A stretch of DNA of 64,000 nucleotides, taken from IMG/VR virus record IMGVR_UViG_3300045988_088152, positions 23,432-87,431 of that record; one strand, given 5' to 3'. Below, in pieces: positions 15,831 to 42,023 of the stretch. The first letter of the stretch is position 1, and each line of letters opens with the position of its first letter. This DNA is from a virus. A program made the translations under genes and the position numbers. The notes under the pieces were generated by a model. The model worked only from the letters and a program-made list of their open reading frames with translations. It made no database searches and was not told the origin of the DNA.

Positions 15831-17408
15831 TTATTCTAATGAATCTCGGCTTGCTTCCCCAGATTCGGTCAGTGCGGTCGAATTTTCTCTTGGTCTACCA
15901 CCTTCGTTATCTGAGCCGCCCTTGGTTGTATTGGTATTTTTCAAGAGCTGTGTATATTTATCGATCCAACCTGTATATTTACTCTCAGCCATCATTGCTT
16001 CAAATACCTGCGGCTGATAACCAGATACGGATGCCCATGTCTGCATAGGTAGAACAATACCAGAATCAGCCATTTTCTTCACTTTGTCAAATCGAGCTTC
16101 ACGCTCAAATGGGTAATTAGACCCGTCAAAGATAAATTTCCACTTATATTTCTTTGTTAGCTGATTAACATAAAATTCTAGGAAATTGCTAAACTGTGGA
16201 TATAGCGGCTTCATAGTCTGGTACATATCATTAAGCCCAGCCTCAATCTCAGCATTGGACTGTCTATCAGAGCTATAAATAACACGGCTCACACCAGACC
16301 CAACACCGGCAGATGTAGCAAGTTGAGTGGAATACATATCTGTATTCTTATCCTCAAACTGATAGAACTTAATATTTTCAAGCGGCATTGCGGCAAGTTT
16401 GGACAATGATCCAAGACCAGCCTTTGCCTTCTGCATGAATCCCCCCAGTGTCTTTGGGTCAATTGCAAACTGATTCGCTTTTGTGCCAGATTTAGCCGAA
16501 TCAAATAGACGAATTTCACCAGCTAAAATAGCATAAGCTGACGCAATGTCCTTATTATACTGCAACTGAGCAATATCATCATTAGCAATGGCATTCTTCA
16601 GAAATGGCGCTAAGAAGGGCGTATTATTAAATGTACTAGGATTCCACTTAAATGCCCATGCGCCATCACTAGGTGATGTTTGCGTCCACATAGCATATGC
16701 GCCATTTCGTCTATTTAATGGATTTGTAGGGCGATAATTTTTGAACGCTTCTTCCTCAGAGCCAAATACACGCTGATAATATTTCTTAAATGCTGGGTCA
16801 AATCCATTGATGTCTACACCAGCTTGTAGGAAATAGCTCATGTCAAAATCAAATAACATACCCTTTTCCCAATATCCGGTAAGTAGGCATCTATCTTGTG
16901 GCAAAATCTGTAGGGCGAATTTCATTCCTTTATTGCCCCACTTCGTCTTTCTGAACCAAGTGAAATATGTCTCATGCGTCACAATTTGTGCTACAACTTT
17001 ACCAAATTCAGCCTTGTAGTCAAATTTGTTCAAAAAATCATACACACGCCGCTTATCCTCTTGGTATGTGCTTGATTCATAGTCACTCTGAGTAAAAGCA
17101 TTGATGCAAACAGGCTGTAAGTCAAATGCTAGAGCATTGCAATATGCTTGTAGAGTTCTGGCAAATATCATATCCCAGAATTTCATATATTCCATATAAC
17201 CCTGAATTTGCTCTGAATTTTCCTTATATTCAGCAAGAGCCTTGCGAATTTTATCAGAACTAGGTGTTTCTGGGTTGTTGTTCAAACTCTGTAATAGTTG
17301 ATTGCTCAACATTGGAGACCAAAAGCCAAACTGGTCATATGCATATAATGCTTGTGCAAATTCCGTTACGGCTTGAGCCTGTTCAAATGTTACTAGCGGT
17401 TCTGCCAA
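15831..17408 (-). CDS. putative portal protein
   Basis: 525 aa immediately downstream of the terminase. It has a TTG start preceded by AAAGGAGGG. Size and position are typical of a portal. Confidence 0.6.
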   Translation of the reverse strand: MAEPLVTFEQAQAVTEFAQALYAYDQFGFWSPMLSNQLLQSLNNNPETPSSDKIRKALAEYKENSEQIQGYMEYMKFWDMIFARTLQAYCNALAFDLQPVCINAFTQSDYESSTYQEDKRRVYDFLNKFDYKAEFGKVVAQIVTHETYFTWFRKTKWGNKGMKFALQILPQDRCLLTGYWEKGMLFDFDMSYFLQAGVDINGFDPAFKKYYQRVFGSEEEAFKNYRPTNPLNRRNGAYAMWTQTSPSDGAWAFKWNPSTFNNTPFLAPFLKNAIANDDIAQLQYNKDIASAYAILAGEIRLFDSAKSGTKANQFAIDPKTLGGFMQKAKAGLGSLSKLAAMPLENIKFYQFEDKNTDMYSTQLATSAGVGSGVSRVIYSSDRQSNAEIEAGLNDMYQTMKPLYPQFSNFLEFYVNQLTKKYKWKFIFDGSNYPFEREARFDKVKKMADSGIVLPMQTWASVSGYQPQVFEAMMAESKYTGWIDKYTQLLKNTNTTKGGSDNEGGRPRENSTALTESGEASRDSLE

Positions 17409-17646
17409 ATTTCGCCCTCCTTTCTTTGTTTTATTGTTTATATATTAGAGCAGTTAGATTATGGACTTCATTAACGTATGCCAAAGTTCATTGAGCTACT
17501 TATCCTCCCTATCCGCTCGTTTTATATTTTTGAGTGTTTTTATTTTCGGCTTTTGACTAAGCCTAAGTTGGAACTTGGATTCCACACAACCCTAATAGTA
17601 CCTCCACGACAACACACCAACATAGTAGCCGCTTCATAGGCAAATA

Positions 17647-19491
17647 TCAATAGACTAATTGAATGGAGTCTATATCAAACTCATCTTCTTGCAACTGTTG
17701 TTGCCATGCGTTCTCAATCAAATCAATAATATAGTTACCATACATGATAGTCACAATTCTATCCTTTGTTCCTGTGCGCGGTTCTTCCAATTTGATTTTA
17801 TCCTGCTTGATAACCGTCTTTAGATTAACTGCCTCTATAACCATCATATCAGTTTGACCATACGGCTCAAGCTGATTAGCTAATTCTTCAGCAGTGTATT
17901 GATAATATTCTCCACTATCTGTTAGCTCGTTCTGATAGTCTTGCATAGAAATAAGAAATTTCATATTGTTAGTTTCAAGCTGTTTGCGTAATGACAACCA
18001 ACCACTACTGTTTAATTCAGGTGTCGCAATAACAGGTATTAAGCAAGGTACTGCGTTCTTATCAACCGTTCTACTATGATAATCGTCAACTTTAGCTTGA
18101 GATACTACTTGGTATTTATCAGCAAGCCCAAATCCACGAGAATCCCATCTTGAGCCTAAATCTGGACGTAGTAATGGTTCTGTCAAATGATTAAATATGA
18201 CTTCTCCACCACTTCTTCCATCGAATGCGGCATAATCAGCGTCATAGACCCACCATAAATATCTAAATCTATCAGACGCGCCTATTGTATCAGAAGCATC
18301 ATGCCCCTCTATATAGTCAACGTGTCGTTCAAATCTATTCTTTTTGCTATTCCAATGCGCCGACATTAACGTTATAATGGTATTGTCGTTTTTTGTGCAA
18401 CCAGTGGTGTTCGCAAAAGCAATATCCATGACTACTAACCGTATCTCGTCCTCTTTCTTTTCTGGAAAGTCAGGTTGTTCACCAGCAAAAAATTGTAATG
18501 CAGTGGGCGGACGGAAACAATGCTCAATGATTTGATTCTCTTTGAAAGATTTTAGATTAAAGAACGCATCATCGCCCTCTGAAATCATCTCGTTCAAATC
18601 TTCCATTCTAAAGTCCATTTCGCCGCCAGCCTTACCATTCCAATAATCAGCCCACGTCTTAAAACCATTATCAATAGCCATAAATATATCACCGGCAAAA
18701 ATATTACATCTTACTTTGGTGTCGGTAAATATACGAGTAAATGTCTTTTTGAATAATAGCCAAAACCACTCAAACTTATATCTAGCAGATGTGATATATA
18801 TATGTTGACATTCCTCTTTCCAACGTGGATTATTACCATATACAGGATTACTAAGATATTTGGCTTGCCTTGGATGCGCCATCTTCTCAAAGACGGAATC
18901 AACCATGCCTTTTTTCAACAAGCGGGCTTCTTCATATGTAAGAATTGTTGCTCTTGGGCCACGAGAGCTATCTTGACACGGTAATACACGCAAAGTAGAA
19001 CCGTTAAGCTTGTTCTCTATTCTATAACCATCTTCTGGTTTAGTAATAACCAAATATTCATGCTCATACATATATAAGAGATATGGCGATAATTTTTTAA
19101 TCAATTCATCCCTTATTTTATCTTCAACCATCTTGTTTGCCTGTGCAACAGTTGATGATGTAATTACCGCCTCTGTGTAAGGATAAAGATTCATCTTTAC
19201 AATATTGCCTAGACCCACAATGAAGGTTTTGGATAAGCCACGACAACATATTGCAAAAAATACATCGGATATGCCCATCAGATATATCATTATCATCTGA
19301 AATGGGCGCAACTTAATACCAAGAACTAAATCAACATATATATGCCAATTCCGGCGTAACTAGAATAAAGTCAGCCACTCTATAGCATTTTCCTCTTTCT
19401 TTGCATCTTTCATTGCGTTTTCTTTTGCTTTTGCCGTAATTAGGTGGTTTCCAAGGAACTTGCGTCTCAAGCCCCCCATCTGACTTTTCAT
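17647..19491 (-). CDS. terL: terminase large subunit, with one in-frame TAG at 19362-19360
   Basis: ORF track 17647..19311 has a Walker-A-like CRGLSKTF and a nuclease-type MDIAFANTTG. The same frame is open upstream to an ATG at 19491 with an SD (GGTGGTGA). Only one TAG interrupts it. The conserved LGIKLRPFQ helix spans the ORF-track start. Confidence 0.7.
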
Positions 19492-19507
19492 TCTATATCA
19501 CCACCCA

Positions 19508-20335
19508 TCATCTCTTTTGGTCTGAGGGCAAATCTGGATATTCGCGCCCGCCCCCAACCAAATTGCGACAACATCTCAAAATATCTTTCCATGTCGGCTC
19601 AAATCCGCTGAAATCCTTATATTTATTCAAATCCTCACATTCGCATGGTTTTGTATTCTCAATATTCCATGCCATGCGCTCTATGAATTTTTCAGTATCG
19701 CTCTGCTTATTTTCCTTAAATTGGTCTAGTTTTAGTACCTTCATCCATTTAAGAATTTCATCACCAGCATCTTTGTCTGTAGGGTCTTTGAATTTACGCA
19801 AATGAGCGCGACATAGATTTAGATAAGCCATCTCTTTAGCCGTGTCCATATCAAGGATTTCTGCTGTATATCGTTCAAAAATATCATCGAGCCACTGATA
19901 TTCCTGTTCTTCATAATCAGTGCCCCACTGACGATTCCATCTCGCTTTAAGCGCTACCTCATCCGTTTCGCCTTTAGCAACATCACCCAAATCCTTGAAA
20001 TTAGACAACTCCATATCACTATCCCATACGCCTGTTAATTTATCAGGCGATGTAGATAGATATGTATGATACAACATAAATAGACTAGGCTTTTTGCCTT
20101 TAGCTGCCTTTTCTAGGGTGTCAAGACAAGCAGTATATTCAGCGCGTCTCATAGGAATGCCAGTCTGCATACAGGTTGACCATAATGCCGCGCCTTGGTC
20201 TTTAGTGGATTCAAGAGCTTGCTTATATAGCTCAGTCACACATGACTTGCATGGCTTAATATATTCGCCCGTTTTGATTGGGCTTTTATAGAATTGGCTA
20301 TCTTGCTTTTCTTTGCCACAATATGGGCAAAACAT
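19508..20335 (-). CDS. hypothetical Zn-ribbon protein (small terminase position)
   Basis: ORF track. It has an N-terminal CPYC...CKSC and lies directly upstream of terL. Confidence 0.35.
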   Translation of the reverse strand: MFCPYCGKEKQDSQFYKSPIKTGEYIKPCKSCVTELYKQALESTKDQGAALWSTCMQTGIPMRRAEYTACLDTLEKAAKGKKPSLFMLYHTYLSTSPDKLTGVWDSDMELSNFKDLGDVAKGETDEVALKARWNRQWGTDYEEQEYQWLDDIFERYTAEILDMDTAKEMAYLNLCRAHLRKFKDPTDKDAGDEILKWMKVLKLDQFKENKQSDTEKFIERMAWNIENTKPCECEDLNKYKDFSGFEPTWKDILRCCRNLVGGGREYPDLPSDQKR

Positions 20336-39694: not shown

Positions 39695-39787
39695 GGCGGT
39701 GTCGGTTAATGGTAAGCCAGCTGGCCTATACCCAGTTTAGTCCTAGATTGGGGCAAAATCAGAGTTCGACCCTCTGCGCCGCTACCA
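39695..39787 (+). tRNA. class II (long variable arm) tRNA with atypical anticodon loop CCUAUAC (UAU if read canonically)
   Basis: Hand fold. Acceptor GGCGGTG/CGCCGCT. D arm GGTT-AATGGTA-AGCC. Anticodon arm GCTGG-CCTATAC-CCAGT. 23-nt variable arm with a GTCC/GGGC stem. T arm CAGAG-TTCGACC-CTCTG. ACCA is encoded. Confidence 0.65.
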
Positions 39788-41953: not shown

Positions 41954-42023
41954 GGAAGCGTAGCTCAGGTGATAGAGTGGCGGCAATGCCGTTGTGTCGT
42001 TGGTTTGAATCCAACCGCTTCCA
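41954..42023 (+). ncRNA. tRNA-like element with a truncated anticodon loop
   Basis: Perfect acceptor GGAAGCG/CGCTTCC. D arm GCTC-AGGTGATA-GAGT. T arm GTTGG-TTTGAAT-CCAAC. The anticodon arm is GCGGC-AAT-GCCGT, a 3-nt loop. No CCA is encoded. Confidence 0.5.

What the first reader, a model, noticed from the sequence alone, without database searches (positions are those of the whole stretch)
19360..19491. Single in-frame TAG 43 codons into the large terminase gene
The TerL frame is continuous from a well-placed ATG (19491, SD GGTGGTGA, 16 nt after the upstream gene's stop) to the stop at 17647, apart from one TAG at 19362-19360. Between that TAG and the ORF-track TTG start (19311) there is no ATG, GTG or TTG. 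Yet this stretch (LRRNWHIYVDLVLGIKLRPFQ) looks like the conserved N-terminal helix that precedes the Walker A of large terminases. Possible explanations: programmed TAG read-through or suppression as a timing gate on packaging; a truncated TerL starting at TTG plus a 43-aa leader peptide; or an assembly error. Phage stop-codon recoding of late genes with phage-encoded suppressor tRNAs is established in other gut phages. This phage does carry unusual tRNAs under early-type promoters (39695, 41678). However, my hand folds do not place CUA at positions 34-36 of either.
Basis: partly seen in the sequence, partly recalled or inferred. Interest (0 to 1): 0.7.

Follow-up and report, generated by a model that had tools for sequence, protein, structure and literature searches.

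The report
Stop-codon hop inside phage terminase gene
The stop codon inside this gut phage's DNA-packaging (large terminase) gene is real and is shared by many related phages; comparing them suggests that ribosomes do not read it but hop over a tiny untranslated gap, which would be the first natural example of a "stop-hop" so far seen only in synthetic constructs.

Summary
The minus-strand terL frame runs from ATG 19491 to TGA 17647, with one TAG at 19362-19360.

It is not an error. The same interruption occurs in about 46 independent contigs. Codons on both sides are under purifying selection, including the 20 codons after the TAG that have no start codon (pN/pS 0.06).

Relatives carry different inserts at exactly this site:
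- TTC|TAG|TTA (this window)
- TTY|TAG|TTC
- TTC|TGA|TTC
- TTC|TAG+CAA/CGA/TGA/TAA|TTC
- TAT|TAGC or TAGG|TAT
- TAT|TAGTT|TAC

The gaps are 3-6 nt long. Some contain two stops, and some change the frame. Every gap starts with a stop and is flanked by codons read by one tRNA (Phe or Tyr). Removing the gap and landing codon makes every TerL collinear with the uninterrupted homologues (W-x-T-x-[F/Y]-R-R-N).

A single mechanism fits all classes: peptidyl-tRNA hopping, that is, short translational bypassing. Amber suppression does not fit: there is no CUA tRNA and no other in-frame TAG in the window.

HNH or GIY-YIG homing endonuclease genes lie directly upstream of terL only in interrupted genomes. 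This echoes the T4 gene 60/MobA cassette.

In this window the landing codon matches at only 2 of 3 bases, so some readthrough cannot be excluded. There is no experimental proof.

The parts
19498..19505 (-). Shine-Dalgarno-like GGTGGTGA, 6 nt upstream of the terL ATG
   Evidence: Sequence reading.
19363..19491 (-). terL segment 1: codons 1-43 (MKSQ...AIEWLTLF), from ATG 19491 to the take-off codon
   Evidence: Homologous to the N-termini of uninterrupted TerL proteins. pN/pS is 0.29 between interrupted classes.
19363..19365 (-). Proposed take-off codon TTC (Phe43). It sits in the P site when the stop enters the A site.
   Evidence: The codon is TTC or TTT (Phe) or TAT (Tyr) at the same position in all interrupted relatives.
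19360..19362 (-). Coding gap: the single in-frame TAG (codon 44)
   Evidence: In relatives the gap is TAG, TGA, TAGC, TAGG, TAGTT, TAGCAA, TAGCGA, TAGTGA or TAGTAA.
19357..19359 (-). Proposed landing codon TTA. It is near-cognate for tRNA-Phe (2 of 3 bases); relatives have TTC, TAT or TAC, matching their take-off codon.
   Evidence: This codon and the TAG are the two codons that uninterrupted homologues lack.
17647..19356 (-). terL segment 2: from the resume codon CGC (19356-19354) through RRNWHIYVD... to the stop TGA 17649-17647 (569 codons plus stop)
   Evidence: The first 20 codons have no ATG (a TTG at codon 17 is TTA in relative L002) and pN/pS 0.06. Top Foldseek matches are large terminases (T4 gp17, Sf6 gp2, HK97, D6E, G20c).
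19297..19305 (-). PFQ motif (codons 63-65), the putative adenine-binding Q motif of the TerL ATPase. A protein started at the first downstream ATG would lose it.
   Evidence: Q65 is invariant in alignment A2. The functional assignment rests on general knowledge of TerL ATPases (inference).
19225..19242 (-). Walker-A-like RGLSKT (codons 84-89)
   Evidence: R84, G85 and K88 are invariant in alignment A2.
19508..20335 (-). Upstream gene, YonG-like (275 aa). In this window it directly abuts terL, with no homing endonuclease gene in between.
   Evidence: Its 98.5%-identical homologue in relative L002 hits Pfam YonG_N. Spacing to terL is 19 nt by tblastn match end, versus about 990-1020 nt in endonuclease-bearing relatives.
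15831..17408 (-). Downstream portal gene (525 aa), giving the packaging-module context
   Evidence: PHROG phrog_2739 portal protein, E 1.5e-43.

Best explanation
The TAG and the following TTA form a 6-nt insert in an otherwise ordinary SPbeta/YonF-type large terminase gene. Full-length TerL is probably made by a short translational bypass, a 'stop-hop'.

Proposed steps (inferred):
1. The ribosome reaches Phe43 (UUC) in the P site with UAG in the A site.
2. Release factor is slow enough for a fraction of ribosomes to let peptidyl-tRNA-Phe unpair.
3. The mRNA slides 6 nt and the tRNA re-pairs with the next UU-starting codon. This is UUA here and UUC in relatives.
4. Decoding resumes at CGC (Arg).

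The product would be a 612-aa TerL with the junction ...EWLTLF-RRNWHIY..., collinear with uninterrupted homologues. Ribosomes that terminate instead release a 43-aa peptide, so the site would also throttle TerL output.

The DNA-level reason for the insert is probably protection against homing endonucleases. Free-standing HNH-NUMOD3 or GIY-YIG endonuclease genes lie immediately upstream of terL only in phages that carry the insert. The insert would break the endonuclease's target without changing the protein, as in the T4 gene 60/MobA cassette. This window would then be a 'bypass kept, endonuclease lost or never gained' allele.

Shown here: the interruption is real, conserved and under selection on both sides, and its architecture varies among relatives.
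Inferred: the hop itself, its efficiency, and the endonuclease-immunity role.
For: 1. Collinearity. Uninterrupted homologues read W-x-T-x-[F/Y]-R-R-N. Every interrupted allele has 6-9 extra nucleotides between the F/Y codon and the first R codon.

2. Ten architectures at one site, written take-off | gap | landing:
- TTC|TAG|TTA
- TTC or TTT|TAG|TTC
- TTC|TGA|TTC
- TTC|TAGCAA|TTC
- TTC|TAGCGA|TTC
- TTC|TAGTGA|TTC
- TTC|TAGTAA|TTC
- TAT|TAGC|TAT
- TAT|TAGG|TAT
- TAT|TAGTT|TAC
. The gap always begins with a stop. The flanking codons are always readable by one tRNA, and they co-vary from Phe to Tyr. The only exception is the window class (TTC to TTA).

3. Double stops and the +7/+8 nt frame-changing classes cannot be decoded by read-through.

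4. The second triplet of the 6-nt gaps drifts among CAA, CGA, TGA and TAA, so it appears unconstrained, as expected for untranslated sequence.

5. Purifying selection. For the 20 codons between the resume codon and the first ATG, pN/pS is 0.06. Within the window class there are 9 synonymous-only variable codons against 1 with an amino-acid change. For the upstream 43 codons pN/pS is 0.29. The two Arg codons after the landing codon vary synonymously (CGC CGG, CGA CGA, CGG CGA, CGT AGG, CGA AGA).

6. Prevalence. About 46 contigs carry the interruption, and the truncated gene-call cluster P0002 has 1080 members. There is no second terL in the window.

7. Endonuclease association. A homing endonuclease ORF lies between the yonG-like gene and terL in all 6-nt-gap alleles and in 2 of 18 unique window-class alleles, where it is of the GIY-YIG type. 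It is present in 0 of 47 unique uninterrupted alleles.

8. Precedent.
- Synthetic stop-hops have matched codons flanking a stop (PMC5009743).
- The T4 gene 60 bypass protects against MobA. Its endonuclease can be lost or swapped for a GIY-YIG type, and its take-off and landing codons co-vary (10.1101/2022.08.31.505936).
- Bypassing has been proposed for the terminase gene of phage Hau3 (PMC10732093).
Against: - There is no experimental evidence for the junction peptide or for the efficiency.
- In this window the landing codon is TTA, which pairs with tRNA-Phe(GAA) at only two of three positions. The single in-frame TAG could also be read through.
- Synthetic stop-hops are described as low-level, which seems low for an essential gene unless very little TerL suffices.
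- No conserved RNA structure or Shine-Dalgarno-like stimulator was found around the site.
- The matched flanking codons could partly reflect how the insert arose, for example by microhomology-mediated insertion, rather than selection for re-pairing.
- The endonuclease association rests on a few related lineages and is not corrected for phylogeny.
- This window has no endonuclease gene next to terL.
Confidence: 0.7

Rival explanations
1. TAG read-through. The amber codon is decoded as an amino acid by a near-cognate host tRNA, a host or phage suppressor, or a recoded (TAG=Gln) host. This would give a 614-aa TerL with two extra residues (X-Leu) and might act as a timing or dosage gate.
For: In this window the frame is unchanged after a single TAG, and the landing codon does not perfectly match the take-off codon. 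At least one gene-calling pipeline translated this allele with TAG=Q. The window carries unusual tRNA-like genes.
Against: - No CUA anticodon was found by ARAGORN or in the three Rfam tRNA matches.
- TAG terminates several ordinary ORFs, and no other gene has an in-frame TAG.
- Sister alleles at the same site have TGA, TAG TGA, TAG TAA, or 4-5-nt frame-changing gaps that read-through cannot decode. A second, different mechanism would therefore be needed for this class only.
- Read-through would insert residues between two conserved positions, where no uninterrupted homologue has any.
Confidence: 0.2
2. Split gene. Translation ends at the TAG, giving a 43-aa peptide. A shorter TerL is started separately at TTG 19311 or ATG 19296, possibly by termination-reinitiation.
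For: Gene callers annotate it this way, as 543-560 aa proteins. The 43-aa ORF is called in relatives.
Against: - The 20 codons between the gap and the first ATG are the most strongly constrained stretch measured (pN/pS 0.06).
- The only earlier start in the window is TTG 19311, three codons before that ATG. It is TTA in relative L002.
- No Shine-Dalgarno sequence precedes the internal starts.
- A protein starting at the ATG would lack the invariant PFQ motif.
Confidence: 0.05
3. Dead gene, sequencing artefact or assembly artefact.
For: None beyond the presence of a stop codon.
Against: The same allele appears in dozens of independent assemblies from different studies, up to 188x coverage. Both gene segments are under purifying selection. 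There is no second terL in the window.
Confidence: 0.01
4. Classical +1/-1 programmed frameshifting, or transcriptional slippage, restores the frame.
For: Two relative classes do change frame (gaps of 4 and 5 nt).
Against: The window allele, and the 3- and 6-nt-gap relatives, need no frame change. There is no slippery heptamer or homopolymer run at the site. Single-nucleotide shifts in the 4- and 5-nt classes would add residues absent from all homologues.
Confidence: 0.02

Closest known systems
Phage T4 gene 60 translational bypass with the MobA homing-endonuclease cassette
   Same: - A stop codon lies immediately 3' of the take-off codon.
[quoted passage not shown]
- The insert sits in a conserved part of an essential gene about 44-46 codons from the start.
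- A free-standing endonuclease gene lies just upstream. It is sometimes replaced by a GIY-YIG type and is often lost while the bypass is kept.
- There, the insert protects against self-cleavage.
   Different: - The gap is 3-6 nt rather than 50 nt.
- No take-off stem-loop, internal Shine-Dalgarno sequence or evident nascent-peptide signal was found.
- The gene is terL, not a topoisomerase subunit.
- The endonuclease is intergenic and does not split the gene.
- There is no sequence homology to the gene 60 cassette.
- The efficiency is unknown.
Synthetic 'stop-hops' in E. coli (Weiss et al. 1987; O'Connor et al. 1989), as described in the Atkins et al. 2016 review
   Same: Matched codons flank a stop, so 9 nt specify one amino acid. 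No special stimulatory signals are needed. This is exactly the TTC TAG TTC architecture of the sister class.
   Different: Those were engineered constructs with low-level hopping. The 2016 review states that no natural occurrences were known. Here the arrangement is natural, conserved and lies in an essential gene.
[quoted passage not shown] 2023)
   Same: Short frame-disrupting inserts lie in a phage large-terminase gene. Their flanks are adjacent in insert-free relatives. Bypassing was supported by a junction peptide in E. coli.
   Different: - The trigger there is the rare sense codon UUA, not a stop.
- The inserts are 10 nt long and occur at two sites.
- Strong local RNA structures are predicted there.
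- The proposed role there is sensing the host growth phase.
- The TerL lineage and the host phylum are different.
Mitochondrial bypass elements ('byps') of Magnusiomyces capitatus
   Same: Short inserts in coding sequence are skipped by ribosomes. [quoted passage not shown]
   Different: That system is mitochondrial, with dozens of mobile elements per genome. It uses an unassigned codon in the A site rather than a stop.
Stop-codon-recoded gut phages (TAG or TGA reassigned, with phage suppressor tRNAs)
   Same: This is a gut phage with an in-frame TAG in a late (packaging) gene. Gene callers that test alternative codes translate it as Gln.
   Different: There is only one in-frame TAG in 64 kb and no suppressor tRNA. 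TAG is used as a terminator, and relatives have undecodable gaps.

Membership tests
Translational bypassing / ribosome hopping | Non-coding nucleotides interrupt an ORF whose two parts are contiguous in homologues | tested here: met
   There are 6 extra nt in the window and 6-9 in relatives. Hop-corrected products are collinear with uninterrupted TerL proteins.
Translational bypassing / ribosome hopping | A slow-to-decode codon (stop or hungry codon) lies immediately 3' of the take-off codon | tested here: met
   TAG in the window. TAG or TGA is the first gap triplet in every interrupted allele.
Translational bypassing / ribosome hopping | The landing codon can pair with the same peptidyl-tRNA as the take-off codon | tested here: inconclusive
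   Met in all relative classes (TTY to TTC, TAT to TAT or TAC). In this window the pair is TTC to TTA, which matches at 2 of 3 positions with a wobble mismatch. Latitude in P-site re-pairing is reported in the literature.
Translational bypassing / ribosome hopping | Both ORF segments are translated as one polypeptide (junction peptide shown) | not testable with these tools
   The only evidence is indirect: purifying selection on both segments and no start codon after the gap.
T4 gene 60-type bypass cassette | A take-off stem-loop, a nascent-peptide signal and an internal Shine-Dalgarno sequence stimulate a long (about 50 nt) bypass | tested here: not met
   The gap is 3-6 nt. RNAalifold on 14 interrupted alleles finds no consensus structure. 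Single-sequence folds are not consistent with each other.
T4 gene 60-type bypass cassette | A homing endonuclease gene is adjacent, and the bypass insert protects against it | tested here: inconclusive
   The window has no endonuclease gene between the yonG-like gene and terL. Relatives with the insert carry HNH-NUMOD3 or GIY-YIG ORFs there; 0 of 47 unique uninterrupted alleles do. Protection against cleavage was not tested.
Stop-codon reassignment or suppressor-tRNA recoding in phages | A suppressor tRNA with an anticodon complementary to the recoded stop | tested here: not met
   ARAGORN finds Ile(tat) and Leu(caa) only. The three Rfam tRNA hits include none with CUA.
Stop-codon reassignment or suppressor-tRNA recoding in phages | Many in-frame occurrences of the recoded stop across (late) genes, with coding density rescued by the alternative code | tested here: not met
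   The standard code already gives about 19,400 codons in stop-to-stop ORFs of at least 100 aa, six frames combined, for a 64-kb window. Recoding TAG gives no more gain than recoding TGA or TAA. TAG ends 8 of the 91 selected ORFs.
Large terminase (TerL), SPbeta YonF type | An ATPase plus RNase-H-like nuclease fold, with synteny to the portal gene | tested here: met
   Top Foldseek PDB hits are all large terminases (probability 1.0). The model's overall pLDDT is only 61; the nuclease domain reaches 80-90. Homologues are annotated as terminase or YonF. The portal gene lies downstream. Pfam and PDB sequence searches with the window protein itself gave no hit.

The most novel reading that the evidence does not exclude
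This would be the first natural, evolutionarily maintained 'stop-hop'. A family of gut phages would express an essential packaging enzyme by letting peptidyl-tRNA skip a 3-6-nt gap that begins with a stop codon, with no elaborate RNA signals. The gap would persist because it immunises terL against homing endonucleases and/or doses TerL. If so, minimal bypassing would be a general, easily evolved way for genes to tolerate protective insertions. Many 'split' or 'pseudogene' calls with a stop flanked by matched codons would then deserve re-examination.
Probability: 0.6. Interest if true: 0.85.

Novelty: new variant of a known kind. Interest (0 to 1): 0.8.

Why it matters
Translational bypassing has very few natural examples: T4 gene 60 and its homologues, yeast mitochondrial byps, and a candidate in Streptomyces phage Hau3. 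Short hops over a stop flanked by matched codons were demonstrated only in synthetic constructs, and the 2016 Atkins review states that no natural case was known.

This site offers a natural comparative series. [quoted passage not shown] That makes the sequence rules of minimal bypassing directly testable.

It also links a second bypass system to homing endonucleases. This supports the idea that bypass inserts evolve as target-site immunity.

There is a practical consequence too. Gene callers split or truncate this TerL (clusters of more than 1000 sequences) or wrongly infer a TAG=Gln code. This affects phage annotation, genetic-code prediction and TerL-based phylogenies.

Tried and rejected
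- **Genome-wide TAG recoding.** Rejected: coding density is normal under code 11, and recoding TAG gives no special gain.
- **Suppressor tRNA.** ARAGORN and Rfam, at both gathering and relaxed thresholds, find no CUA anticodon.
- **The 93-nt 'tRNA-Ile(tat)'.** Its loop CCUAUAC contains the letters CUA, but offset by one position and preceded by C, not U33.
- **The tRNA-like element at 41954-42023.** I speculated that it might be tRNA-Phe-like and linked to hopping. One pattern scan was wasted on a miscounted gap. The corrected scan found only an unrelated tRNA-Arg in two other contigs. I dropped the idea.
- **P0001 as a natural CAG (Gln) variant.** Rejected: its contig has TAG.
- **Conserved RNA structure or Shine-Dalgarno-like stimulator.** None found. 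A hairpin through AAUUGGCAUAUAUAUGUUGAUU also occurs in uninterrupted alleles.
- **Other hop-like sites in the window.** A scan for stop plus matched codon found only chance or gene-junction cases besides 19362.
- **Pfam, PHROGs and PDB sequence searches.** These gave no terminase label for this protein. The fold search was needed.
- **Metagenome DNA scan.** The pattern was too permissive: 24 of 120 rows were TerL.
- **Two scans of bacterial genomes.** They found only two MAG contigs, so the host remains unresolved.
- **Host from cultured relatives.** The nearest cultured relatives infect Enterocloster bolteae, at 47% TerL identity.
Full report
**1. The observation**

On the minus strand the frame opened by ATG 19491-19489 stays open for 614 codons, to TGA 17649-17647. 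The only interruption is TAG at codon 44, at 19362-19360.

- The mechanical ORF list shows a 43-aa ORF at 19360..19491. The next ORF starts at TTG 19311, so no ATG, GTG or TTG lies between them.
- The upstream gene stops at 19510-19508, 16 nt before the ATG.
- GGTGGTGA lies at 19505-19498.

The finding is exactly as described.

**2. The gene**

The protein has no Pfam hit, no informative PHROG and no match by sequence in the PDB. Other evidence identifies it as a large terminase:

- tblastn finds SPbeta-type terminases, including YonF, Enterocloster phage PMBT24 'terminase large subunit' (47% identity) and Thomasclavelia phage terminases.
- Some homologues carry Pfam Terminase_1.
- An AlphaFold model has mean pLDDT 61, with the nuclease domain at 80-90. 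Its best PDB matches are exclusively large terminases: T4 gp17, Sf6 gp2, HK97, D6E and G20c.
- A portal gene follows it. A YonG-like gene precedes it.
- There is no second terL in the window.

**3. The TAG is not an error and not a new gene start**

tblastn alignments to other phages begin at query residues 4-39, upstream of codon 44. Hundreds of homologues of 607-617 aa align end to end.

Many close relatives were called as 524-560 aa proteins that start at internal Met codons. One such cluster has 1080 members. I fetched their contigs and found a 42-43-aa ORF in front of the truncated call in most of them.

Selection analysis across 28 unique interrupted alleles gave these results:

| Segment | pN/pS between classes | Within the window's class |
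|---|---|---|
| 20 codons between the interruption and the first ATG | 0.06 | 9 synonymous-only variable codons, 1 with an amino-acid change |
| Upstream 43 codons | 0.29 | 5 synonymous-only, 5 with an amino-acid change |

The two Arg codons right after the interruption vary only synonymously. The TTG at 19311 is TTA in relative L002. Both segments are therefore translated, and the second one cannot be reached from a start codon of its own.

**4. What relatives show**

Uninterrupted homologues read W-x-T-x-[F/Y]-R-R-N. Interrupted alleles have 6-9 extra nucleotides between the F/Y codon and the first Arg codon. Written as take-off | gap | landing, the architectures are:

| Architecture | Found in |
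|---|---|
| TTC\|TAG\|TTA | this window, about 23 contigs |
| TTC or TTT\|TAG\|TTC | 8 contigs |
| TTC\|TGA\|TTC | L330 |
| TTC\|TAGCAA\|TTC, TAGCGA, TAGTGA, TAGTAA | L018, L079, L106, L166, L390, L391, L389, L006, L186 |
| TAT\|TAGC\|TAT and TAT\|TAGG\|TAT | 4 contigs |
| TAT\|TAGTT\|TAC | L332 |

From this table:

- The stop can be TAG or TGA.
- The gap can hold two stops.
- The gap can be 4 or 5 nt long and change the frame.
- The second triplet of the 6-nt gaps drifts among CAA, CGA, TGA and TAA, as if untranslated.
- The gap always starts with a stop.
- The codon before the gap and the codon before the resume codon are always readable by one tRNA. They switch together from Phe to Tyr.
- Deleting the gap and the landing codon makes every protein collinear with the uninterrupted ones.

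A neighbour-joining tree of the adjacent 600 nt places two uninterrupted alleles (L070, L160) inside the interrupted clade. The insert has therefore been gained or lost repeatedly.

**5. Mechanism**

A single mechanism accounts for all classes. With a stop in the A site, peptidyl-tRNA leaves the take-off codon and re-pairs at the matched codon 6-9 nt downstream. Decoding then resumes. This is translational bypassing at its shortest, a 'stop-hop'.

- Read-through cannot decode the double-stop or frame-changing classes.
- Single-nucleotide frameshifting would add residues that no homologue has.
- No slippery sequence or homopolymer run is present.

For this window the predicted product is 612 aa with the junction ...EWLTLF-RRNWHIY....

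The weak point is that the window's landing codon is TTA, not TTC. tRNA-Phe(GAA) would re-pair at two of three positions. The literature reports latitude for P-site re-pairing and two-out-of-three pairing in mitochondrial bypassing. The TTA allele is the most abundant class and also occurs in a divergent background (L392). Even so, read-through of the single TAG cannot be excluded for this class.

I found no conserved RNA structure or Shine-Dalgarno-like element, so the efficiency may be low. Most ribosomes would then release the 43-aa peptide, and TerL would be made in small amounts.

**6. Why the insert exists**

In all 6-nt-gap alleles an HNH-NUMOD3 homing endonuclease ORF of 300-315 aa lies between the yonG-like gene and terL. 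Its stop overlaps the terL ATG. Two window-class alleles carry a GIY-YIG/I-TevI-like ORF at the same spot instead. None of 47 unique uninterrupted alleles has any insertion there.

Mobile endonucleases are common around terL and the portal gene in this phage group:

- An HNH ORF lies between terL and the portal gene in L010.
- A DUF7487/DUF559 endonuclease ORF splits the portal gene of L006.
- The terL genes of Enterocloster phages contain introns.

This mirrors the T4 gene 60/MobA cassette. There the bypass insert disrupts the endonuclease's target. The endonuclease is often lost or swapped for a GIY-YIG type while the bypass persists, and the take-off and landing codons co-vary.

I therefore think the gap is primarily a target-site immunity scar, made tolerable by hopping, with TerL dosage as a possible secondary effect. 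This part is inference. The window itself has no endonuclease gene next to terL.

**7.

There is no sign of phage-wide TAG recoding and no CUA tRNA. The one protein that seemed to show Gln at codon 44 (P0001) comes from a contig with TAG. It was translated under an alternative code by the source pipeline. The 'truncated TerL' and 'assembly error' options are rejected (section 3). The idea of a programmed recoding event that gates TerL is retained, but with a different mechanism.

**8. Comparison with what is known, and novelty**

| Known system | Relation to this site |
|---|---|
| Synthetic stop-hops | Work the same way. The 2016 review says no natural case was known. |
| T4 gene 60 | Shares the logic and the endonuclease link. 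It lacks any counterpart here for the 50-nt gap and its RNA and peptide signals. |
| Phage Hau3 terminase | Shares the target gene. It uses a rare sense codon and 10-nt inserts. |

My literature searches found no report of this system. I rate it a new variant of a known kind.

**9. Limits**

- All the evidence is comparative.
- The host is unknown. The genome scans found only two MAG contigs.
- The classes are not phylogenetically independent.
- Some classes rest on a single contig (L006, L186, L330, L332, L389).
- The endonuclease-immunity idea is untested.

Noticed in passing
window 17529-17642 (minus strand): A drum RNA (Rfam RF02958, 55.9 bits against a gathering score of 43) fills most of the 238-nt gap between the terL stop and the portal gene. 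Its role in a phage packaging module is unknown.
   Followed up: no
window 41954-42023 (+): A tRNA-like gene scores 44.4 bits on the Rfam tRNA model. It has normal acceptor, D and T arms, but its anticodon arm is GCGGC-AAU-GCCGU, a 3-nt loop. ARAGORN does not call it. It cannot decode normally and may be a pseudo-tRNA or a decoy.
   Followed up: partly
window 39695-39787 (+): A 90-93-nt tRNA-like gene (Rfam 42.8 bits; ARAGORN 'Ile(tat)') has the anticodon loop CCUAUAC, with C at the usual U33 position. It carries an insert of about 20 nt in the variable region. It is not an amber suppressor as folded.
   Followed up: partly
L185 (contig of protein P0001): A public gene call translates the terL TAG as Gln, so an alternative genetic code was applied to this contig. 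A single bypass site can therefore mislead genetic-code prediction for short phage contigs.
   Followed up: yes
L006 4693-7455: The portal gene of this relative is split into 252-aa and 237-aa parts by a 275-aa DUF7487/DUF559 (Vsr-like) endonuclease ORF. This probably marks an intron or another mobile insertion.
   Followed up: partly
L010 3442-3915 (same contig as L057): An HNH-NUMOD3 endonuclease ORF lies between terL and the portal gene in some window-class phages. This is a second endonuclease insertion point in the packaging module.
   Followed up: no
Proteins P0012 and P0013: TerL is mosaic. These proteins have N-terminal halves very different from the window's but nearly identical C-terminal halves. 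This implies recombination within terL, possibly driven by endonuclease-mediated co-conversion.
   Followed up: no
L187 (contig of P0081), upstream of 281: This terL call starts just before the Walker A motif. It is preceded by unrelated AT-rich sequence instead of the usual N-terminus. That could be another insertion (an intron?) or a chimeric contig.
   Followed up: no
Take-off codon across loci (window 19363-19365): Interrupted Phe-type alleles use TTC at take-off in all but one unique sequence. Uninterrupted alleles mostly use TTT there (21 TTT against 1 TTC). TTT is also the commoner Phe codon in the window's long ORFs (267 against 133). This may reflect how the insert arose or a pairing requirement.
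   Followed up: partly
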